Assembly (NCBI GenBank): GCA_050187625.1
Contig: JBFWXH010000027.1
Location: 4,828-68,827, forward strand
Direction: 5' to 3'
DNA length: 64,000 bases
From: Candidatus Binatia bacterium
GTDB lineage: Bacteria; Desulfobacterota; Binatia; Bin18
Shown: piece by piece, positions 10,897 through 19,487 of the stretch
How positions within the stretch are numbered: the first letter of the stretch is position 1
Layout of the letters: every line of letters starts with the position of its first letter
The notes under the pieces: model-generated
Databases searched by the model: none
The model's input: only the letters and a program-made list of their open reading frames with translations
What the model was told of the DNA's origin: nothing
Program-made: the position numbers and the translations under genes

Positions 10897-10986
<90 letters not shown>

Positions 10987-10987
10987 G

Positions 10988-11096
10988 TGGTGATAGCTAG
11001 GTCCTGCGCAAGGGAGGTCGGGAACCCCGCCAGGTCCGGAAGGAAGCAACGGTACCGCTCCTAACCCTGTGCCGCAGGGTAGCCTAGCTATCACCA
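10988..11096 (+). ncRNA. ffs: Signal recognition particle RNA (small bacterial 4.5S type)
   Basis: Terminal helix TGGTGATAGCTAGG/CCTAGCTATCACCA; conserved domain IV CAGGTCCGGAAGGAAGCA; canonical position upstream of dnaX. Confidence 0.93.
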
Positions 11097-11192
11097 GTGG
11101 CAACAAATTCGATGGACATAAAGTGTAAAAAGTAAAACGTAATAAAAAATTTCACGGATTACGCATTCCGTTTTTCGTGTGACGTTCTGGCC

Positions 11193-13001
11193 ATGAGCTA
11201 CCTTGTTTTAGCACGAAAGTGGCGACCTCAGACTTTTGATACGGTCGTGGGTCAAGAGCATGTTACTCGTACCCTTCGTAATGCGATCAGCAGCAATCGT
11301 GTTGCTCACGCTTTTCTCTTTACAGGTCCGCGCGGTGTCGGCAAAACCACAACCGCCCGATTACTCGCAAAAGCACTGAACTGCGAACAAGGGCCAACGG
11401 CTGACCCCTGTAACACGTGTAGTAACTGTATTGAAATCACAGCTGGCACCGCTCTCGATGTGTTGGAAATCGACGGCGCTTCTCATACTGGTGTCGACAA
11501 TATCCGGGATCTCACTGAGGGGACGCAGTATCGCCCAGTCAAGAGTCGATTTCGCGTCATTATCATCGATGAAGTGCATATGCTGTCGAATGCGGCTTTT
11601 AATGCCCTCCTGAAAACGCTGGAAGAGCCACCGCCTCATGTAAAGTTCATTTTTGCCACAACAGAATCCCACAAGATTCTTCCGACGATATTGTCGCGAT
11701 GTCAGCGGTACGACTTTAAGCGGATTCCTTTACGTGAGCTTCTGAAAAAATTACGCGACATTGCAGAAAACGAGGGGCTGACAACTGATGATGTTGGACT
11801 TGCCCTGCTTGCCCGCGAAGCAGATGGCAGTCTCCGTGATGCTGAGTCACTGCTCGACCAAGTCGTAGCGTGGGGAGATGGGATTATCAATGAGCAGTCA
11901 GTCCGAGAGGCGCTAGGAGTCGCGGATCGACAGGCCCTTTTTCGTCTCGTCGACGCCGTGCTTACGCAAGATCCGGCTTCCGCTTTGCGTCTGGCTGGAG
12001 ACTTATACCAATACGGATATGATCCCCGCCGGCTGTGTCATGACTTACTGGAACACTTTCGCAATCTTGTCCTTCTCAAAGTGAATCCCGAACTCGCAGC
12101 TGTTGCAGACTTGCCCGACCATGAGATTGCCACCATCCAACAACAAGCCTCTCCACTGTCATTAGAAGACCTTCAACGACTATTTACCCTCATGTTACGT
12201 ACAGAGGAGGAAGTAAATAAAACGGCGTATGCCCAGCTGGTCATCGAGATGACTCTCGTCAAGCTCGCGCGCCAACCAGCAATTTTGCCGATCGACGAAG
12301 CCCTTGCGCGGTTAGAAACGATAACCCAGGCACTATCAGGTGCCTCTTCGCCATCTTTTGCTGAGCGTGTTCAAGAAAAACCCGCTCCACCGCTCACTCC
12401 GGTCGCGAAATCATCTCCTCGGGCCCCTGCGCAAGAATCACCACCCTCTTCTCTTCGCCCATCACCGCCGTTGTCCAGAGAAGCCTCTCAAAAGCTGCTA
12501 GACAGACCTACTGCTCCCCAAAAGGAAGAAGCAAGTTCTCCCCGGTCAATCAGGGAAGCGACGCCACCCGTAGACGCACTTCCGTCAGGAGATTGGGAAC
12601 GATTTCTCACGTCGGTGCAAAAGGAAAAAATCTCAGTATTTTTTGCTCTGAAGTCCGGGCGGCTCCTCGAATTGACACAGACAAGCTTGCAAATTGTGCT
12701 TGAGAAAGATCCCTATTTCAAAGAGCTTACACGGAAAGAAAACCTGACACTGCTTGAATCGATAGCGAACCGAGTCTTTGGTCGTCCTCTCGCTGTAGAA
12801 ATCCACAAGAGTGGAAGCGCTCGGGCAGTTACGAGCCCGGCCTCTCCTGGGTCGGTCGCTTCACCTGCTGCCCCTGTTCAGATACAAAAACAACAAGAAA
12901 GTCATACTGACGATCCCCTCGTCCAAACTGTCCTCGACGTTCTCGGTGGTGAAGTGCAAAAAACACGCTCGCATCGGTTATCGGGCGAGCCCTCACAATA
13001 A
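11193..13001 (+). CDS. dnaX: DNA polymerase III subunit gamma/tau
   Basis: Motifs LARKWRPQTF, GPRGVGKTT, IIDEVHML and SRC; Pro/Ser-rich linker; dnaX-ybaB-recR synteny. Confidence 0.97.
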   Translation: MSYLVLARKWRPQTFDTVVGQEHVTRTLRNAISSNRVAHAFLFTGPRGVGKTTTARLLAKALNCEQGPTADPCNTCSNCIEITAGTALDVLEIDGASHTGVDNIRDLTEGTQYRPVKSRFRVIIIDEVHMLSNAAFNALLKTLEEPPPHVKFIFATTESHKILPTILSRCQRYDFKRIPLRELLKKLRDIAENEGLTTDDVGLALLAREADGSLRDAESLLDQVVAWGDGIINEQSVREALGVADRQALFRLVDAVLTQDPASALRLAGDLYQYGYDPRRLCHDLLEHFRNLVLLKVNPELAAVADLPDHEIATIQQQASPLSLEDLQRLFTLMLRTEEEVNKTAYAQLVIEMTLVKLARQPAILPIDEALARLETITQALSGASSPSFAERVQEKPAPPLTPVAKSSPRAPAQESPPSSLRPSPPLSREASQKLLDRPTAPQKEEASSPRSIREATPPVDALPSGDWERFLTSVQKEKISVFFALKSGRLLELTQTSLQIVLEKDPYFKELTRKENLTLLESIANRVFGRPLAVEIHKSGSARAVTSPASPGSVASPAAPVQIQKQQESHTDDPLVQTVLDVLGGEVQKTRSHRLSGEPSQ

Positions 13002-13015
13002 ACGAAGGAGCACTC

Positions 13016-13318
13016 ATGGCAAACCTCGGAGACCCGATGAAGATACTGTCCAAACTGACACGGCTACAAGAGGAAGTGGCAAAGAAAACGGTCGAGTCGT
13101 CCGCAGGTGGCAATATGGTCACAGCGGTTGTCAACGGACGGTTAGAAGTTCTTTCCCTGCAGATTGACCCAGCAGTTGTCACCTCTGGCGATGTGGAGAT
13201 GCTCCAAGACCTTGTCATTGCTGCGGTCAACGAAGGGATTCGCAAAGCCCAAAAAATGATGGCGGACGAAATGGGTAAAGTGACAGGGGGATTAAAAATC
13301 CCTGGGCTCACAGCCTAA
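13016..13318 (+). CDS. ybaB: YbaB/EbfC nucleoid-associated protein
   Basis: Motifs AGGNMV and DVEMLQDLVIAAVNE; lies between dnaX and recR; AGGAG RBS. Confidence 0.93.
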   Translation: MANLGDPMKILSKLTRLQEEVAKKTVESSAGGNMVTAVVNGRLEVLSLQIDPAVVTSGDVEMLQDLVIAAVNEGIRKAQKMMADEMGKVTGGLKIPGLTA

Positions 13319-13354
13319 TGTATGCCCGGCAATACAGCATACATTGAATCACGT

Positions 13355-13951
13355 ATGCAGCTCACACCGGCCCTCTCACGTCTTGTACAAGAACTAGGGA
13401 AACTCCCAGGAGTTGGCGAGAAAACCGCGATGCGTCTCGCGTTATTCATCCTTGGAGCGGGCCGAGAATATGTAGAGAATCTGGCTGAAGCAATTTGGGC
13501 AGTGAAGGCCGAAACTACCCACTGCCAACGCTGCTTCGGCCTCGCCGAAGGGGAGCTCTGTCCTGTATGCAGCGATCCAAAACGCAGTAATGAGTCCATT
13601 TGTGTGGTTGAAGAACCAGCTGATCTCTTAGCCGTCGAACGTGCCCAGGAATATCACGGACGCTACCATGTGTTACACGGGGTCCTAGCACCACTCGACG
13701 GGATTGGTCCAGAAGAACTAAAGATTGCTCCTCTGATGGAACGCCTCCGAGAAGGCCAGACGCAAGAGGTCATTATCGCAACCAACCCGACAGTTGAGGG
13801 AGAAGCGACGGCCTTATATCTGGCAAAGCTGATCAAGCCGCTAGGCATACGTGTCAGCCGGATCGCACATGGCATCCCAATGGGAGGTGACGTTGAGTAC
13901 GTTGATGCGGTCACGCTTGGCCGGGCGATTGAAGGACGACGAGAAATGTAA
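13355..13951 (+). CDS. recR: Recombination mediator RecR
   Basis: HhH motif LPGVGEKTAMRL, C4 Zn finger, TOPRIM motif EVIIATNPTVEGEATA. The start could alternatively be 13322. Confidence 0.96.
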   Translation: MQLTPALSRLVQELGKLPGVGEKTAMRLALFILGAGREYVENLAEAIWAVKAETTHCQRCFGLAEGELCPVCSDPKRSNESICVVEEPADLLAVERAQEYHGRYHVLHGVLAPLDGIGPEELKIAPLMERLREGQTQEVIIATNPTVEGEATALYLAKLIKPLGIRVSRIAHGIPMGGDVEYVDAVTLGRAIEGRREM

Positions 13952-13977
13952 TCGGTGTTGATAACCTGATGATGTGC

Positions 13978-14006
13978 TTTACACGTTCTTGTCCCTTTGC
14001 TACAAC
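13978..14006 (+). promoter_or_regulatory. Putative sigma70 promoter of the tRNA-Asn gene
   Basis: TTTACA-17 nt-TACAAC with a TG extended -10, ending 12 nt before the tRNA 5' end. Confidence 0.5.
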
Positions 14007-14018
14007 ACTGGCCGACAA

Positions 14019-14340
14019 TCCTCGGTAGCTCAACCGGCAGAGCAATCGGCTGTAATTGTTGCAGCTTCAACGGGAAACCGTCGTTGAAAAACCGGGTGAA
14101 TTCAGGGAAGCCTAAACCAAACACGTTTGGCAAGGTAATCCTGAGCGAAGCCTGCTGAAGGGTAGACAGTAAGCAGGAACGTGCAGAGACTAGAGGCTGA
14201 GGAACCCGTCCAATAACGCCTCACAAGCGCCCGGCGCCCCCCCTTAGCATGCTAGGCGGGCGATGAGATAGTCCGAACCTAAGAGAAATCTTAGGGGTTT
14301 CGTAACCGATGGGTTGTAGGTTCGAGTCCTACCCGAGGAG
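14019..14340 (+). tRNA. tRNA-Asn(GUU), intron-containing (exons 14019-14053 and 14303-14340)
   Basis: The joined exons form a perfect 73-nt cloverleaf: TCCTCGG/CCGAGGA acceptor, GCTC/GAGC D-stem, ATCGG-CT-GT^T-AA-CCGAT anticodon arm, GTAGG-TTCGAGT-CCTAC T-arm, discriminator G. CCA is not encoded. Confidence 0.93.
14054..14302 (+). ncRNA. Group I self-splicing intron (249 nt, no ORF, probably subgroup IA)
   Basis: P1 GCTGT/GCAGC with U-G at the 5' splice site; P3 CCGGGTG(14092)/CGCCCGG(14228); P AATTCAGGGAA; Q AATCCTGAGC; R GCAGAGACTA; S GAGATAGTCC (P7 GACTA/TAGTC); P9 CCTAAGA-GAAA-TCTTAGG; terminal omega-G at 14302. Confidence 0.92.
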
Positions 14341-14350
14341 CTTTCACCCT

Positions 14351-14390
14351 AACAGCCGCATGGAGCATACACCATGCGGCTGTTCCTTTT
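14351..14390 (+). terminator. Intrinsic terminator after tRNA-Asn
   Basis: 13-bp stem AACAGCCGCATGG/CCATGCGGCTGTT followed by CCTTTT. Confidence 0.65.
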
Positions 14391-14451
14391 CCGTTCTCAG
14401 AACGTGCCGCGCGGCCGTCGCCGTACGAATGTGCGGGGCGACTTGAACAAC

Positions 14452-16536
14452 TCACAAATGGGACGTTTGGGTACGCACGATGAGCAGTGACGACGGGCAT
14501 TGGGTCGCGATCCGTTCCGACCGCAACCCGAAGACGTGGGGTTCAAGTTGCCATTCTTCTCCTACTCCAAGTATCGTGAGGTCATACCCTACTGCCGCTT
14601 GTAACACGGCTGCCACTGGGTCGTCGCCCTCTACTACTATAAACCGAGTCGTTGCCCCATGCGGTTCCGGAAATTCCTGCGCGAGTTGGCTCTGGACTTC
14701 TTGCTCCAGGTGAGGGTGTAGACGGCCCGGACGGACAATGTGCAAAAGCGTTACCTGTGCCCGATAGCGACAGCCGATACGAGCCGCGATGCCAAGTGCC
14801 GCTCGATCATGTGCCGTCCCGGTGTACGGCAGAAGGATATGACGGGGAGGGAAGGGGCAGTCCTTATCTACGAAGACTGCCACGTCTGCTCGACTCCCGT
14901 GCATCACTTGCTGCACGGTTCCACCGAGTATTGCCTGGCTGAAGACGGGCTTATGCCATCCCATAACAATCAAGCCCACACCTTTGGCTTGCGCCACGTC
15001 ACAGATATCAGCCCCTGGGGTGCGGCTCAGAAATGCTAAGGGATGGACATCCACCCCCCGTGCTTGTGCATGGGTCATTAACAGTGCGAGAGCGTCATGC
15101 TTGACAGAGGGCGACTCCAGGGCTCGTGCCCCCAGTGTCCCCCGTTCAAGGGGACGACTGAGGTGGAGGGCATAGATCAGTGGCCTCTCTCCTTCCGCAA
15201 TGGCGACTGCCACCTCGAGCAGGGCGGGCCCAGAATGGGCAAGCGCAACCGGCACTAATACTGGAACTCCTTGTGCGGGCGTTGCAAACGTACGGACCTC
15301 TGTGCCCCAGCGGTCTCTCGGATAGATCAAAGTAAGGGCAGGAGTGGTCATGAACGTGGTAACGAGAGCCATCATGACCATCATGGCAAAGAGTGTCGGC
15401 GAGATGACCCCAAGATCAAGTCCAATGTTGAGAATGATCAGTTCCATGAGACCTCGCGTGTTCATCAAGACGCCGACTGCGCTCGCTTCTCGCACCTTCA
15501 TTCCAGTAGCAACAGCGGCAAGCGTGCATCCCCCAAACTTCCCGACGGTCGCCGCCCCAATAACCACGAGGCAGATGAGCCAGGATTCGACGCCTTCAAG
15601 TAACCCTAGATGAGTCCGCAACCCCGTGTAAGCAAAATACAGCGGGAGTAGAAAGACGACGGCAAAGTCTTCGACTTTTTCCGTGAGTTCTCGCACAAAG
15701 GTACTCTGCTTGGGCATCACCGTACCAAGCATAAACGCACCAAAAACAGCGTGAATACCGATAAGGTCGGTCACTGCGGCACTACTTAACACAAGGAGAA
15801 ATACGCTAGCCACGACATTCTGAGAGAGTCGACCAGTTGTATCGTACAGAAGCCTGACGCGAGCGAGCAACGGGCGGATGAGCAACAGCATGGCGCTGAT
15901 GTATAAAACAGCAAGTCCGATCGTGACCCCTGTCTCCTGCACGCCCGCCGCGCGGACCAAGGCCACGACCACAGCGAGGAGACACCATGCGGTGATGTCA
16001 TCGATCGCCGCACAAGTTACCGCGACAGCGCCGACTTTCGTTTTTAGCAGATCTCGCTCAATGAGAATTCGAGCAAGCACGGGAAAAGCGGTGACTGACA
16101 TGGCAGCTCCCAAGAACAACGCAAAACTCAGCAACGGGACAGCGTCCGGGGCAAGTCGAGCGTGAAGGGAGAACGCAAGCAGGACTCCGAGGAGAAAGGG
16201 AACAATGATGCCTGCTTGTGAGATAATCAACGCTGCCCGTCCGCGACCGTGGAGGAGTGCGGGATCCAACTCGAGCCCCACGAGAAACATAAAAAACAAC
16301 ACGCCGTACTCACTCAAAACCTTGAGAAACGGCAAGACAGGCGGTGGAAAGAGTGTAGCAGCGGTATCGGGAGCAATCCAGCCGAGAAATGATGGCCCCA
16401 GGAGAACTCCTGCGGCAATCTCACCAATGACCTGTGGTTGTTGAAGCCGTCTAACCCCGATCCCGAGAAGTCGTGACACCGCAATAATGACAACGATACC
16501 TACGGTAAGATGCAATAGCGTGCTCTCTAAGGTCAT
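14452..16536 (-). CDS. CPA2-family cation/H+ antiporter with C-terminal universal-stress-protein-like domains
   Basis: Motifs QPQVIGEIAAGVLLGPS, MSVTAFPVLARIL and LMNTRGLMELIIL; USP-like LIVMGWH..LGGTV. Start placed at MTLEST. Confidence 0.9.
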   Translation of the reverse strand: MTLESTLLHLTVGIVVIIAVSRLLGIGVRRLQQPQVIGEIAAGVLLGPSFLGWIAPDTAATLFPPPVLPFLKVLSEYGVLFFMFLVGLELDPALLHGRGRAALIISQAGIIVPFLLGVLLAFSLHARLAPDAVPLLSFALFLGAAMSVTAFPVLARILIERDLLKTKVGAVAVTCAAIDDITAWCLLAVVVALVRAAGVQETGVTIGLAVLYISAMLLLIRPLLARVRLLYDTTGRLSQNVVASVFLLVLSSAAVTDLIGIHAVFGAFMLGTVMPKQSTFVRELTEKVEDFAVVFLLPLYFAYTGLRTHLGLLEGVESWLICLVVIGAATVGKFGGCTLAAVATGMKVREASAVGVLMNTRGLMELIILNIGLDLGVISPTLFAMMVMMALVTTFMTTPALTLIYPRDRWGTEVRTFATPAQGVPVLVPVALAHSGPALLEVAVAIAEGERPLIYALHLSRPLERGTLGARALESPSVKHDALALLMTHAQARGVDVHPLAFLSRTPGADICDVAQAKGVGLIVMGWHKPVFSQAILGGTVQQVMHGSRADVAVFVDKDCPFPPRHILLPYTGTAHDRAALGIAARIGCRYRAQVTLLHIVRPGRLHPHLEQEVQSQLAQEFPEPHGATTRFIVVEGDDPVAAVLQAAVGYDLTILGVGEEWQLEPHVFGLRSERIATQCPSSLLIVRTQTSHL

Positions 16537-16739
16537 GTGGAGTGCGACGTTGTTTAGAGAGGCATCTGGAGGAGCGGAGAAGAGGTATAACCCGGCCAAT
16601 CGCGACAAATTTTTATCAACAAGTCGGAAGCTCCTCTCTGCATCACAAGACACCGAAGTTCCAACACCTATCACCTAATCCAGGTATAGACAGTGCGCAG
16701 CGTACTGAATCAAGTCGTTCATGTCTAACGCGTCCGCCT

Positions 16740-19487
16740 TTAGTGGGTATAACTCGGCGAGACAGCGATAGGTCTCGCAGCTACAATACGTCTGATCCAC
16801 TTCTCCAAACCAACGACAACATATATGCCGACTCCCGCCGCGACAATACGAAGCCAAGCGTCAAACCCAATCGGGGCGCTGTGAAAAAGATGGTTCATGA
16901 GTTCGGTGTAAGTGAAGAGCATCTGTAGCCCAATCATTGACCCGGCCCCAAGGAGCAACCACGGATTAGAAAACAGACCGAGCGCGAACATCGAGCGGGT
17001 CAATGAACGGCAATTAAAGAGATAAAACAATTCACCCATCACTAACATATTGACCGCGACGGTTCTGGCTTCGGCCTCCTCAGCACCTTGCTGGACTTCC
17101 CACACAAACAAACCAAACGCCCCTGCGAGGAGAAGGATACTGACTATCAAGATACGTATCACAAGTGTCATCGAGAGGATTGGCGCGTGCGGGTCGCGCG
17201 GCGGTCGTTGCATGACGTCGGTTTCCTTTGGCTCGAAAGCTAGCATAAGCCCGAGGAGGAGCGCCGTCGTCATATTGACCCAGAGAATCTGCACCGGCAG
17301 GATGGGAAGCGTTATCCCTGCAGCGATAGCCGTCATGATCACTAACGCTTCACCTCCGTTCGTTGGCAGCGTCCAGGTGATAAATTTCGTCAGATTATCA
17401 AACACACAGCGCCCTTCTTCTACCGCCGCTTCAATCGAGGCAAAGTTGTCGTCCGTAAGCAACATATCCGCCGCTTCTCTAGCGACCTCCGTACCTGCCA
17501 TACCCATGGCGATGCCAATATCCGCCTGCTTGAGTGCCGGGGCATCGTTCACACCGTCACCGGTCATTGCGACCACATGACCGCAGGACTGCAAAGCCTC
17601 TACGAGGCGTAGTTTTTGTTCTGGGGTGACACGAGCGAACACGGCGACGTTTTCCGCCGCTTCCGCCAATTGGTGACCTTCGAGCTCCGCTAGCTCTACC
17701 CCACTCAGTCCTGGCGTCTGTCCAGCCGGGTTGAGTCCAATAGTTTGTGCGATCGCGGTGGCGGTCAGCACATGATCACCGGTGATCATCTTGACAGCGA
17801 TTCCTGCCGCTTGGCAGTCTTCGACCGCCACAATGGCCTCCGGACGTGGGGGATCAATCATGCCCTGAAGTCCAAGAAACATGAGCCCTTCTTTTAGATC
17901 CGTATGGTGTACCGTGTGCTTATGGGTGTCGACGATCCGCTTTGCAAAAGCCAGGACTCGCAATCCCTTGGCTGCCATGGTGCTGGCCGCCTGTTCAAGG
18001 GGCCGACGGACTAACGGTATGGCATTGCCTTGTGCGTCCAGCATCATCGTGCACCGCGCCAAGATCACTTCCACAGCGCCTTTGCTATAGAGGATTCCCT
18101 CTGCTCCGTTGGCACTTCTGTGCAAAGTCACCATATATTGGTGCTGCGATTCAAAGGGAAGAACGTCGATGCGCGGCAGGTCGTGTTCCACTCTCTGCTG
18201 CGACAATCCAGCTTTCTGGGCCACGGAAAGCAACGCCCCTTCCGTCGGGTCACCCTCCACAATCCACCGGCCGTCTTTTTCCGTCAACGCAGAGTCGTTG
18301 CAAAGCAGTCCTGCCAACACACACTCGTGCAGTGCGGGCGCGTTCGCAATCGTCACTGGCTGTTCCGCACGGAAAATCTGCCCGCTCGGCGTATACCCAG
18401 TCCCGCTGACGGCGTACAGGTGCTCCCCTGCATAGATCTCCTGCACGGTCATCTGATTTTCCGTCAACGTGCCAGTTTTATCGGAGCAGATCACAGTTGT
18501 ACTGCCAAGGGTCTCCACTGCCGGCAACTTACGGATAATGGCGCGACGACGAGCCATCCGCGACACGCCAATCGCCAGCGTAATCGTGATCGCCGCTGGG
18601 AGCCCCTCCGGAATCGCACCCACTGCCAGCGCCACCGCCGCCATAAACATGGCGAAGGGCGATTCTCCACGCCACAGGCCAAGCGCAAAAGTCGCCGCCG
18701 CCAGCACCAGAATGACATGGAGTAAGAGATGGCTGAATTCTTTGATCTTACGAGTCAGCGGAGTCGAGAGCTCAACCGCCTGGGCGACAAGCTGTGAGAT
18801 ACGGCCGGTTTCGGTCGCGTCACCAATAGCAACAACGACGCCGGTTCCTTGTCCGTACGTCACCAGGCTGCCGGCATAGGCCATATTGACCCGATCCGCG
18901 AGCGGCGTCTCTGCTGGTAGCGATTTACTTCCTTTGGTCACGGGGACGGATTCTCCCGTCAGCGCGGATTCGTCCACTTGGAGATCACGGACTTTGAGCA
19001 GTCGCACATCCGCTGGAACTTTATCGCCTGACGCCAAGAGGACCACGTCACCCCGTGTCAATTCCCGAGAAGGAAGGCGTCGTTTTCTTCTATCGCGGAC
19101 CACAGTTGCCTCTGTAGTAACAACTCGTGCGAGAGCCGCGATAGCATTTTCAGCCCTCGCTTCCTGAATGAACCCGACCACAGCGTTGACCAAGACCACC
19201 CCAAAAATCACACCAGCGTCCACCCACTCTTGTAACAGTGCGGTTACGGCAGTTGCTGCCAAGAGGAGGTAGATTAACGGTTGATGGAATTGCAACAAGA
19301 AGCGCACCCACGCGCTCCGTTGTTTTTGCGCGGTAATTTCGTTGGGGCCAAAACGCGCCTGACGTGCCACTGCCTCTTCCGTCGTCAAGCCGGTCTCCGG
19401 TTGACTGCCAAGCAACTCAGAGACCTCATGCTCCGGCAAATGGTGCCACTGTTTCTCAAGCAAGGTTTCCATTGCGGTGTTGGACAT
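16740..19487 (-). CDS. P-type cation-transporting ATPase (P2A, Ca2+-type)
   Basis: Motifs TGES, IPEGLP, DKTGTLT, KGAVE, TGD and GDGVNDAP. Confidence 0.95.
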   Translation of the reverse strand: MSNTAMETLLEKQWHHLPEHEVSELLGSQPETGLTTEEAVARQARFGPNEITAQKQRSAWVRFLLQFHQPLIYLLLAATAVTALLQEWVDAGVIFGVVLVNAVVGFIQEARAENAIAALARVVTTEATVVRDRRKRRLPSRELTRGDVVLLASGDKVPADVRLLKVRDLQVDESALTGESVPVTKGSKSLPAETPLADRVNMAYAGSLVTYGQGTGVVVAIGDATETGRISQLVAQAVELSTPLTRKIKEFSHLLLHVILVLAAATFALGLWRGESPFAMFMAAVALAVGAIPEGLPAAITITLAIGVSRMARRRAIIRKLPAVETLGSTTVICSDKTGTLTENQMTVQEIYAGEHLYAVSGTGYTPSGQIFRAEQPVTIANAPALHECVLAGLLCNDSALTEKDGRWIVEGDPTEGALLSVAQKAGLSQQRVEHDLPRIDVLPFESQHQYMVTLHRSANGAEGILYSKGAVEVILARCTMMLDAQGNAIPLVRRPLEQAASTMAAKGLRVLAFAKRIVDTHKHTVHHTDLKEGLMFLGLQGMIDPPRPEAIVAVEDCQAAGIAVKMITGDHVLTATAIAQTIGLNPAGQTPGLSGVELAELEGHQLAEAAENVAVFARVTPEQKLRLVEALQSCGHVVAMTGDGVNDAPALKQADIGIAMGMAGTEVAREAADMLLTDDNFASIEAAVEEGRCVFDNLTKFITWTLPTNGGEALVIMTAIAAGITLPILPVQILWVNMTTALLLGLMLAFEPKETDVMQRPPRDPHAPILSMTLVIRILIVSILLLAGAFGLFVWEVQQGAEEAEARTVAVNMLVMGELFYLFNCRSLTRSMFALGLFSNPWLLLGAGSMIGLQMLFTYTELMNHLFHSAPIGFDAWLRIVAAGVGIYVVVGLEKWIRRIVAARPIAVSPSYTH

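What the first reader, a model, noticed from the sequence alone, without database searches (positions are those of the whole stretch)
14019..14340. Group I intron inside the anticodon (35/36) of tRNA-Asn(GUU)
Seen: two tRNA halves are separated by 249 nt containing all group I core elements (P1 with U-G at the splice site, P3, P/Q/R/S, P7, GNRA-capped P2 and P9, omega-G). Removing 14054-14302 restores GT^T = Asn. An extra hairpin between P7 and P3' (GAGGC...GCCTC, about 14193-14222) points to subgroup IA. Known: the classic bacterial tRNA introns are mostly IC3 introns in Leu(UAA), fMet/Ile(CAU) and Arg(CCU) tRNAs. I recall Asn 35/36 introns being reported from Patescibacteria (not verified here), whereas this host has respiratory complex I and outer-membrane genes. 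Inference: the intron has a wider host range or moved between phyla. It has no homing-endonuclease ORF. Standard tRNA finders may miss the gene, and if it is the only tRNA-Asn then splicing is essential.
Basis: partly seen in the sequence, partly recalled or inferred. Interest (0 to 1): 0.8.

Follow-up and report, generated by a model that had tools for sequence, protein, structure and literature searches.

The report
Self-splicing intron in tRNA-Asn gene
The only asparagine tRNA gene found in this genome is split inside its anticodon by a 249-base group I ribozyme intron, which is real but belongs to an intron family that is common across many bacterial groups.

Summary
Confirmed. Window 14019-14340 is a tRNA-Asn(GUU) gene split between anticodon positions 35 and 36 by a 249-nt group I intron (14054-14302). 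Rfam RF00028 scores it 89 bits (cut-off 50). It has a U·G pair at the 5' splice site and a terminal omega-G.

- It is the only tRNA-Asn gene and the only RF00028 hit in the 7.9-Mb assembly, so splicing should be essential.
- Default ARAGORN and the Rfam tRNA model both miss the gene.
- The intron is not rare. At least 94 of them carry the same intron at the same tRNA-Asn site, under about 20 phylum labels.
- In the host's own family 10 of 24 genomes have it and 12 have an uninterrupted gene.
- Longer relatives (about 550 nt) carry an HNH-like homing-endonuclease ORF in the P1 loop. The window copy is the ORF-less form.
- The extra hairpin between P7 and P3' is real and covaries. However, the core sequence matches the classical IC3-type tRNA-Leu intron, so the "subgroup IA" call is not established.
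- A 2020 preprint already lists 21 tRNA/site settings for such introns, but its table is an image I could not read.

Verdict: new member of a known kind, modest interest.

The parts
14019..14053 (+). tRNA-Asn 5' exon (positions 1-35, ending in G34 U35). Its last six bases, GGCUGU (14048-14053), form the 5' strand of P1.
   Evidence: ARAGORN with introns; P1 pairing counted (U·G at the splice site in 73 of 73)
14054..14302 (+). Group I intron, 249 nt, with no ORF of its own; omega-G at 14302
   Evidence: RF00028 89 bits; ARAGORN intron length 249
14061..14066 (+). Internal guide sequence GCAGCU (3' strand of P1)
14068..14083 (+). P2 hairpin with a GAAA loop (one A·C mismatch in this copy)
   Evidence: 6 of 6 pairs change on both sides across relatives
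14092..14098 (+). P3 5' strand (CCGGGUG); pairs with 14228-14234
   Evidence: 100% paired; 3 of 7 pairs with double changes
14102..14144 (+). P4-P5-P5a domain (P4 14102-14106 / 14140-14144; P5 14110-14113 / 14133-14136)
14145..14182 (+). P6/P6a (P6a 14151-14156 / 14172-14177)
   Evidence: P6a: 6 of 6 pairs with double changes
14186..14192 (+). P7 5' strand (G-A-GACUA with a bulged A); pairs with 14269-14274
   Evidence: invariant, partly by construction of the search pattern
14193..14222 (+). Extra hairpin between P7 and P3' (the position of P7.1): stem GAGGC/GCCUC, conserved loop UGAGGA...CCAAUAA
   Evidence: 46 sequences; 4 of 4 predicted pairs with compensatory changes
14228..14234 (+). P3 3' strand (CGCCCGG)
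14236..14261 (+). P8 hairpin
14269..14274 (+). P7 3' strand (UAGUCC)
14278..14295 (+). P9 hairpin with a GAAA loop
   Evidence: 7 of 7 pairs with double changes
14303..14340 (+). tRNA-Asn 3' exon (U36 to discriminator G); no CCA is encoded
14351..14394 (+). Terminator-like hairpin with a T-rich tail just after the tRNA
   Evidence: 1 site found; 0.9 expected in shuffles, so weak on its own
14056..14115 (+). Short open frame LLQLQRETVVEKPGEFREA*. It matches the C-terminal tail of the endonuclease ORF of long-form relatives, which reads through P1'-P2-P3-P4.

Best explanation
This is a working group I self-splicing intron inside the single tRNA-Asn(GUU) gene of the genome.

Inferred mechanism, from the established group I pathway:
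1. The gene is transcribed as a roughly 320-nt precursor.
2. The intron folds into the P3-P9 core and pairs its guide sequence GCAGCU with the exon end GGCUGU (P1).
3. A free guanosine attacks after U35.
4. The terminal G (14302) then enters the same site, and the freed U35 3'-OH attacks before U36. This joins the anticodon G-U|U.

The copy is the ORF-less form of a mobile intron family. That family sits at this same site in many bacterial lineages, and its longer members carry an HNH-type homing endonuclease in the P1 loop.

Shown: the sequence, the structure, covariation, distribution and uniqueness of the gene. Inferred: catalytic activity, essentiality, and endonuclease-driven homing as the way the family spread.
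For: - Identity: RF00028 scores 89 bits, E 2e-21. Removing 14054-14302 gives a canonical tRNA-Asn(GUU).
- Structure: 96.7% of cells pair. P2, outer P3, P6a, P8 and P9 show compensatory changes. The U·G at the 5' splice site is present in 73 of 73 sequences. 0 of 500 shuffles reach these values.
- Only tRNA-Asn in G000: default ARAGORN finds 47 tRNAs and no Asn. There is one RF00028 hit in the genome. The exons match only contig C27. The one other 'Asn' split call, on C22, is a poor cloverleaf with coding sequence as its 'intron'. The assembly is 98.3% complete.
- Same intron at the same site elsewhere: 10 of 24 family genomes; 24 of 151 class genomes; at least 94 of the first 119 pattern hits in species-representative genomes.
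- Endonuclease in long forms: 24 of those 119 loci have introns of 400 nt or more. 17 hold an intact ORF with CxxC...HH...CxxCH...H by a motif filter. Pfam HNH matches 10 of 18 aligned members at E<=0.01, best 8.6e-5. The best PDB profile hit is the HNH enzyme McrA, E 0.012. The top Foldseek hits are all HNH nucleases, best E 0.024.
- In the host family: L007 and L011 have the ORF intact, and in L006 it is frame-broken.
Against: - There is no direct evidence of splicing. The RNA runs held only contigs of relatives and showed no joints.
- The assembly has 192 contigs and 9% contamination, so a second tRNA-Asn in unassembled DNA cannot be excluded.
- P2 has one A·C mismatch in this copy.
- The HNH assignment rests on sub-threshold scores: Pfam 18.6 bits against a cut-off of 21.4, and no Foldseek hit at E<=0.001.
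- The proportion of Asn among the scan hits is biased, because the pattern was derived from Asn introns.
Confidence: 0.9

Rival explanations
1. The intron is a decaying, non-splicing remnant and this tRNA-Asn is a pseudogene. The functional tRNA-Asn would lie in unassembled DNA.
For: The assembly is fragmented (192 contigs) and tRNA-Ile(GAU) and tRNA-Ala(UGC) are also missing. P2 has one A·C mismatch.
Against: All core helices and the U·G and omega-G are intact and match the family consensus. No other Asn gene was found by three methods. Relatives with the intron at the same syntenic locus show the same pattern.
Confidence: 0.04
2. The contig is a binning contaminant, so the intron belongs to another organism than the bulk of the genome.
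For: Contamination is estimated at 9%.
Against: The locus (tRNA-Ser, SRP RNA, dnaX, ybaB, recR, tRNA-Asn) is syntenic with that of relatives. Same-family genomes carry 82-86% identical introns. The rest of the assembly has no tRNA-Asn.
Confidence: 0.04
3. The intron is a subgroup IA intron and is unrelated to the classical IC3 tRNA introns.
For: A covarying hairpin sits between P7 and P3', where IA introns carry P7.1/P7.2 (placement of these elements recalled from Michel and Westhof 1990). 25 of 73 relatives have two hairpins there joined by a conserved GUAC linker.
Against: A profile of the family matches the classical cyanobacterial tRNA-Leu(UAA) 34/35 intron at E 7e-11 over P3-P6. GISSD marks that class as IC3 according to the 2020 preprint. 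That Leu intron has only four bases (CGAC) where the hairpin sits, so the hairpin looks like an insertion into an IC3-like core. No similar intron was found in 50,697 phage records.
Confidence: 0.15
4. The intron splices in vivo only with the help of a host protein or chaperone and is not self-sufficient.
For: No direct evidence. Many group I introns need such factors (Hausner 2014 review, passages seen).
Against: It is compact, with two GNRA loops and the full core, as in bacterial tRNA introns that self-splice in vitro (reference titles seen; activity recalled).
Confidence: 0.15

Closest known systems
Classical bacterial tRNA group I introns: tRNA-Leu(UAA) 34/35 of cyanobacteria and plastids, tRNA-Ile2(CAU), tRNA-Arg(CCU) and tRNA-fMet. 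All are filed as IC3 in GISSD according to Williams 2020.
   Same: Location in the anticodon loop; about 250 nt; U-1/omega-G; GAAA-capped P2 and P9. The P3-P6 sequence is recognisably homologous (nhmmer E 7e-11 to a Hormoscilla tRNA-Leu intron).
   Different: The host tRNA and site (Asn, 35/36). An extra covarying hairpin, or two hairpins in some relatives, lies between P7 and P3', where the Leu intron has four bases.
tFind catalogue of split bacterial tRNA genes (Williams 2020, bioRxiv 10.1101/2020.01.27.920355; whole text read)
   Same: The detection logic (RF00028 plus ARAGORN plus the U-1/omega-G rule). It reports 5292 split tRNAs in 21 tRNA/site settings across phyla, many from metagenomic assemblies.
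   Different: The text never names Asn. Table 1 and Fig. 3 are images and the supplements are closed, so I could not see whether 'Asn.4Ug' is one of the 17 new settings. The text describes neither the P7.1-like elements nor the endonuclease.
Same-core introns in other tRNAs, found by the same pattern
   Same: Identical conserved blocks (GUGAAUUCAGGGAA, CAGAGACUA, AGAUAGUC). The family profile hits them at E 1e-26 to 1e-45.
   Different: They sit in tRNA-CAU at 36/37 (9 loci), tRNA-Leu(UAA) at 33/34 (4), tRNA-Thr(UGU) at 36/37 (2) and tRNA-Tyr(GUA) at 35/36 (1).
Subgroup IA introns with P7.1/P7.2, such as the phage T4 td and Twort introns (recalled, not fetched)
   Same: Extra helices placed between P7 and P3'.
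   Different: The core resembles IC3 tRNA introns, and no phage record matches the intron.
Intron-encoded homing endonucleases of tRNA introns, such as the tRNA-fMet intron enzyme of Synechocystis (title seen in the reference list) and HNH enzymes of phage introns (recalled)
   Same: Long-form relatives carry an ORF in a peripheral loop, as expected for homing.
   Different: The ORF is HNH-like and small (106-173 aa). It sits in the P1 loop and its last ~20 codons are the ribozyme's P1'-P2-P3-P4 sequence. The window copy has no ORF.

Membership tests
Group I intron (Rfam RF00028) | Covariance-model score above the curated cut-off | tested here: met
   89 bits against 50, full-length match
Group I intron (Rfam RF00028) | P1 with a U·G wobble at the 5' splice site, and a terminal G (omega-G) at the 3' end | tested here: met
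   U14053·G14061; G14302. U·G is present in 73 of 73 homologues
Group I intron (Rfam RF00028) | P3-P7 pseudoknotted core with P4-P6 and P8, supported by covariation | tested here: met
   96.7% paired; 28 of 53 pairs with double changes; 0 of 500 shuffles
Group I intron (Rfam RF00028) | Guanosine-dependent self-splicing | not testable with these tools
   The RNA runs gave no verdict
tRNA-Asn(GUU) | Canonical cloverleaf and a 7-nt anticodon loop CU-GUU-AA after intron removal | tested here: met
   ARAGORN on the spliced and unspliced sequence. Exons are 95-100% identical to uninterrupted tRNA-Asn genes of relatives
Subgroup IC3 (classical bacterial tRNA introns) | Core sequence homology to a classical tRNA-Leu(UAA) intron | tested here: met
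   nhmmer E 7e-11 over P3-P6
Subgroup IC3 (classical bacterial tRNA introns) | Short J7/3 with no helix between P7 and P3' (feature list recalled) | tested here: not met
   A 30-nt covarying hairpin at 14193-14222. The Leu reference has CGAC there
Subgroup IA | P7.1/P7.2 (or P7.1/P7.1a) between P7 and P3' (recalled from Michel and Westhof 1990) | tested here: inconclusive
   One hairpin in the window type (46 of 73) and two hairpins in 25 of 73. The position fits, but homology to IA elements was not tested
Subgroup IA | Best score with an IA-specific model or IA reference introns | not tested
   No subgroup models or IA references were held. No phage intron resembles it
HNH homing endonuclease (relatives only) | An ORF inside this intron | tested here: not met
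   The window intron has only a 19-codon remnant frame
HNH homing endonuclease (relatives only) | HNH motif and fold in the ORF of long-form relatives | tested here: inconclusive
   Pfam HNH matches 10 of 18 members at E<=0.01, all seen scores below the cut-off. McrA E 0.012. The model has pLDDT 74.8 and the top Foldseek hits are HNH nucleases, best E 0.024. Invariant Cys/His pattern

The most novel reading that the evidence does not exclude
The tRNA-Asn 35/36 intron family may be an undescribed structural class of bacterial tRNA intron. It would combine three features:
- an IC3-like core that has gained IA-style helices between P7 and P3', in two alternative architectures (one composite hairpin, or two hairpins with a GUAC linker);
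- spread by a small HNH endonuclease whose C-terminal codons double as the ribozyme's P1'-P2-P3-P4 strands;
- abundance outside cyanobacteria that may rival or exceed that of the classical tRNA introns.
Probability: 0.3. Interest if true: 0.55.

Novelty: new member of a known kind. Interest (0 to 1): 0.3.

Why it matters
- For annotation: default tRNA finders report this genome, and many others, as lacking tRNA-Asn. That can be misread as incompleteness or as an odd decoding system.
- For biology: in this organism a ribozyme stands between transcription and every asparagine codon.
- The family offers a large natural data set. It has about 100 or more diverged copies, with and without an endonuclease, and presence/absence varies within genera. 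This suits the study of the invasion, degeneration and loss cycle of homing introns, and of an ORF that overlaps a ribozyme core.
- None of this overturns current understanding. [quoted passage not shown]

Tried and rejected
- RNA evidence. One search for runs found three metatranscriptome runs holding 5-6% of the words. Laying them gave only contigs of relatives (88-99% alike), some bridging exon-intron borders, and no joints. A loose end continues from 14053 into 'TAACCG...', but it has a different T-arm and also occurs in the DNA run, so it comes from other organisms' uninterrupted genes. No verdict on splicing.
- Literature searches for tRNA-Asn with group I intron, for the Candidate Phyla Radiation and for HNH with tRNA introns found no text naming an Asn intron. 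A 2017 paper on cyanobacterial tRNAs (PMC5733544, passages seen)-49-nt inserts 'group I introns', which is not relevant.
- The phage collection holds no similar intron. It gave only 39-nt tRNA-Asn exon matches in 4 Streptomyces phage records.
- ARAGORN with introns on the whole genome gave 14 split calls. Only the C27 call overlaps the genome's single RF00028 hit. I inspected one of the other 13, the C22 'tRNA-Asn', and rejected it. The remaining 12 were not looked at.
- ARAGORN named some homologues Thr(tgt), Gln(ctg) and others. I re-read these by the U-1/omega-G and P1 rule.
- My first pair count nested P3 and P7 wrongly. I repeated it with pseudoknot brackets. Script 43 had two wrong offsets, corrected in 44 and 46.
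- No sigma-70-like promoter was found upstream.
- The MFE z-score of the intron alone is only -1.84.
- Host taxonomy stays unsettled. The nearest named contigs sharing flank synteny are labelled Ca. Methylomirabilota, Ca. Binatia, 'Deltaproteobacteria' and, implausibly, Klebsiella pneumoniae.

Full report
**1. What is there**

Reading 13800-14560 shows two tRNA halves, 14019-14053 and 14303-14340, separated by 249 nt.
- cmscan places Rfam RF00028 (Intron_gpI) at 14043-14295: 89 bits against a gathering score of 50, E 2.1e-21, over the whole model.
- Default ARAGORN reports only tRNA-Ser(GGA) in the window. The Rfam tRNA model also reports only that gene.
- With introns allowed, ARAGORN calls tRNA-Asn(gtt) with a 249-nt intron at 35-36. 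The sequence spliced in silico folds into a normal 74-nt cloverleaf.
- The junction CTGT|AATTG...TTTCG|TAACC allows no alternative register.

**2. Anatomy**

| Element | Window coordinates / sequence |
|---|---|
| P1 | exon GGCUGU (14048-14053) with intron GCAGCU (14061-14066); U14053·G14061 at the splice site |
| P2 | 14068-14083, GAAA loop |
| P3 | 14092-14098 with 14228-14234 |
| P4-P5 | 14102-14144 |
| P6/P6a | 14145-14182 |
| P7 | 14186-14192 with 14269-14274 |
| Extra hairpin | 14193-14222 |
| P8 | 14236-14261 |
| P9 | 14278-14295, GAAA loop |
| omega-G | 14302 |

The MFE fold of the intron alone recovers P2, P3, P4, P5, P5a, P6a, the extra hairpin, P8 and P9. A terminator-like hairpin follows the tRNA at 14351-14384. 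Upstream lie tRNA-Ser, SRP RNA, dnaX, ybaB and recR.

**3. Structure test**

I aligned 73 distinct pre-tRNA-Asn sequences (alignment A2). They are the window, 9 relatives from the genome search, and 63 short-form Asn hits of the collection scan. I left out long forms over 300 nt, non-Asn hosts and duplicates.
- With P7 written as a pseudoknot, 96.7% of 3867 cells form standard pairs.
- 28 of 53 pairs change on both sides.
- 0 of 500 shuffles reach the observed values, and slid controls pair at 33-44%.
- P2, P6a and P9 covary at every pair. The U·G at the splice site is present in 73 of 73.
- P4 and P7 never vary. This is partly by construction, because the scan pattern contained those blocks.

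**4. Is it the only tRNA-Asn?**

- The assembly (7.89 Mb, 192 contigs, 98.3% complete, 9% contamination) has one RF00028 hit.
- Default ARAGORN finds 47 tRNAs and none for Asn.
- The exons match only C27.
- ARAGORN with introns gives 14 split calls. Apart from C27, the only 'Asn' call (C22) has a 3-bp D stem, mismatches and coding sequence as its 'intron'.
- tRNA-Ile(GAU) and tRNA-Ala(UGC) are also missing. I assume, without checking, that they lie in unassembled rRNA operons.
- Within the limits of a draft assembly, splicing is needed for every Asn codon.

**5. Distribution**

In the host's relatives (41 genomes; junctions), the family splits as follows:

| State of tRNA-Asn in the host family (24 genomes besides G000) | Genomes |
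|---|---|
| Intron present (10) | G003, G005, G006, G007, G011, G012, G015, G017, G018, G020 |
| Uninterrupted gene (12) | G002, G004, G008, G009, G010, G013, G014, G016, G019, G021, G022, G023 |
| No match (2) | G001, G024 |

- Genera g5, g6 and g10 contain both states, so gain or loss is recent.
- One genome of the same order (G025) and two of the same class (G033, G037) also have the intron.
- In an even draw of the class, 24 of 151 genomes (G000 included) match the intron at E<=1e-8. The matches are concentrated in families f10 (7 of 17) and f11 (13 of 17).

A pattern of three invariant blocks was scanned over one genome per species.

| ARAGORN result for the 119 contigs | Loci |
|---|---|
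| Split tRNA called | 110 |
| - Asn(GUU) 35/36 | 94 |
| - CAU 36/37 | 9 |
| - Leu(UAA) 33/34 | 4 (one by eye) |
| - Thr(UGU) 36/37 | 2 (by eye) |
| - Tyr(GUA) 35/36 | 1 |
| No call | 9 |

- Ambiguous junctions were re-read by the U-1/omega-G and P1 rule.
- The share of Asn is biased, because the pattern came from Asn introns.
- The record titles name Nitrospirota, Binatia, Aminicenantes/Acidobacteriota, Planctomycetota, Bacteroidota, Ignavibacteriota, Elusimicrobiota, Omnitrophota, Myxococcota, Bdellovibrionota, Cyanobacteriota, Gammaproteobacteria, several Patescibacteria lineages and others. That is 20 phylum labels among the labelled rows of the tree. Some labels are plainly wrong.

On a quick ML tree of the intron, labels cluster more than chance: 26 changes against a shuffled mean of 39, with 0 of 200 shuffles as low. 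The host family's introns fall in two places (G018 lies with Nitrospirota). The same-order and same-class copies sit in two further clades. Support for these placements is mostly weak, so this only hints at transfer on top of vertical descent.

**6. How it moves**

- Three family relatives (L006, L007, L011) have introns of 551-558 nt, and 24 of the 119 scan loci have introns of 400 nt or more.
- The extra ~300 nt lie in the P1 loop and encode a 106-173-aa protein.
- 17 of the 24 pass a motif filter as intact. L028 and L126 have full-length ORFs that the filter missed. L040, L042, L083 and L131 have the ORF broken into frames. L096 has none.
- In the family, L007 and L011 are intact and L006 is frame-broken.
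- The alignment of 18 proteins has invariant C..C, HH and C..CH..H positions.
- Pfam HNH matches 10 of 18 members at E<=0.01 (best 8.6e-5); the scores shown were below the cut-off.
- The best PDB sequence hit is the HNH enzyme McrA, E 0.012.
- An AlphaFold model (pLDDT 74.8) has only weak Foldseek hits, but the top ones are HNH nucleases: Gme HNH at E 0.024, then Cap5, Cas9 HNH, McrA and T4 endonuclease VII.
- The last ~20 codons of the ORF (...VVEKSGEFREA) are the ribozyme's P1'-P2-P3-P4 sequence. The window keeps that frame as LLQLQRETVVEKPGEFREA*.

I read the window copy as the ORF-less stage of the usual homing cycle. That is inference.

**7. Subgroup**

The segment between P7 and P3' comes in two forms:
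- One hairpin with a conserved UGAGGA...CCAAUAA loop. This form is found in 46 of 73 sequences, the window included, and 4 of 4 predicted pairs are compensatory.
- Two hairpins joined by GUAC. This form is found in 25 of 73, and 10 of 11 pairs are compensatory.
- Two copies have a short stem.

By position these match P7.1/P7.2 of subgroup IA (definition recalled).

Against an IA origin, a sequence-only profile of the family hits the classical tRNA-Leu(UAA) 34/35 intron of a Hormoscilla genome at E 7e-11 over P3-P6. That intron has only CGAC where the hairpin sits. GISSD files the classical tRNA introns as IC3 (Williams 2020). I could not run subgroup models or fetch IA references, so the subgroup stays open. 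An IC3-like core with inserted helices is my preferred reading.

**8. Literature**

- Williams 2020 (whole text read) reports 5292 split tRNA genes in 21 tRNA/site settings. The text never names Asn, and the table, figure and supplements were not readable.
- The 2014 review of bacterial group I introns does not contain 'Asn' (passages).
- The tRNAscan-SE 2.0 paper says the program was not designed to detect such introns (passages).
- Lui et al. 2021 note that some tRNAs in their complete metagenomic genomes had group I introns (passage).
- Searches found no text describing a tRNA-Asn group I intron, its P7.1-like helices or its HNH ORF.

**9. Verdict**

The intron is almost certainly functional and, in this assembly, indispensable. 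It is not an oddity of this host but one copy of a very widespread, partly mobile family. I rate it a new member of a known kind, with modest interest. The family-level features (the inserted helices, and an endonuclease that overlaps the ribozyme core) are the part that might be new.

Noticed in passing
L012:4-507 (relative G015): The same tRNA-Asn intron carries a different ~178-nt insertion near the P6 region (428-nt intron). Its best ORF is arginine-rich and looks like a translated repeat element rather than a gene.
   Followed up: no
L145:970-1804: A Cyclobacteriaceae-labelled genome has a 750-nt intron in tRNA-Leu(UAA). By eye it contains an ORF with a C..C...HH...CPNCH motif, seemingly a second HNH-like endonuclease in a tRNA intron. 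RF00028 scores it 41.9 bits, below the cut-off.
   Followed up: no
L146:1426-1746: The Hormoscilla genome has a third RF00028-like element (40.9 bits, below cut-off) inside a tRNA that ARAGORN calls Leu(CAA), with the intron at 37/38. The junction was not checked by the U-1/omega-G rule.
   Followed up: no
L039, L038, L068, L045, L052, L066, L082: The same intron core sits in tRNA-Tyr(GUA) at 35/36 (Omnitrophota label), tRNA-Thr(UGU) at 36/37 (two Proteobacteria labels) and tRNA-Leu(UAA) at 33/34 rather than the classical 34/35. L045 and L052 carry Myxococcales/Myxococcota labels, L082 a Deltaproteobacteria label and L066 a Proteobacteria label.
   Followed up: partly
L064 (named record): A contig labelled as a Klebsiella pneumoniae MAG carries this locus, with flank synteny and 72-77% identity to the window's dnaX-recR region. 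The label is probably wrong.
   Followed up: no
window 10897-13951: A conserved cluster of tRNA-Ser(GGA), small SRP RNA, dnaX, ybaB and recR lies directly upstream of the split tRNA-Asn. The order is shared with relatives.
   Followed up: partly
window 14455-19487 (- strand): Downstream on the opposite strand are a Na+/H+ exchanger fused to a universal stress protein domain (740 aa) and a P-type cation ATPase (915 aa).
   Followed up: no
G000 whole genome: The genome encodes tRNA-SeC(TCA). tRNA-Ile(GAU) and tRNA-Ala(UGC) were not found, and I did not look for rRNA operons.
   Followed up: no
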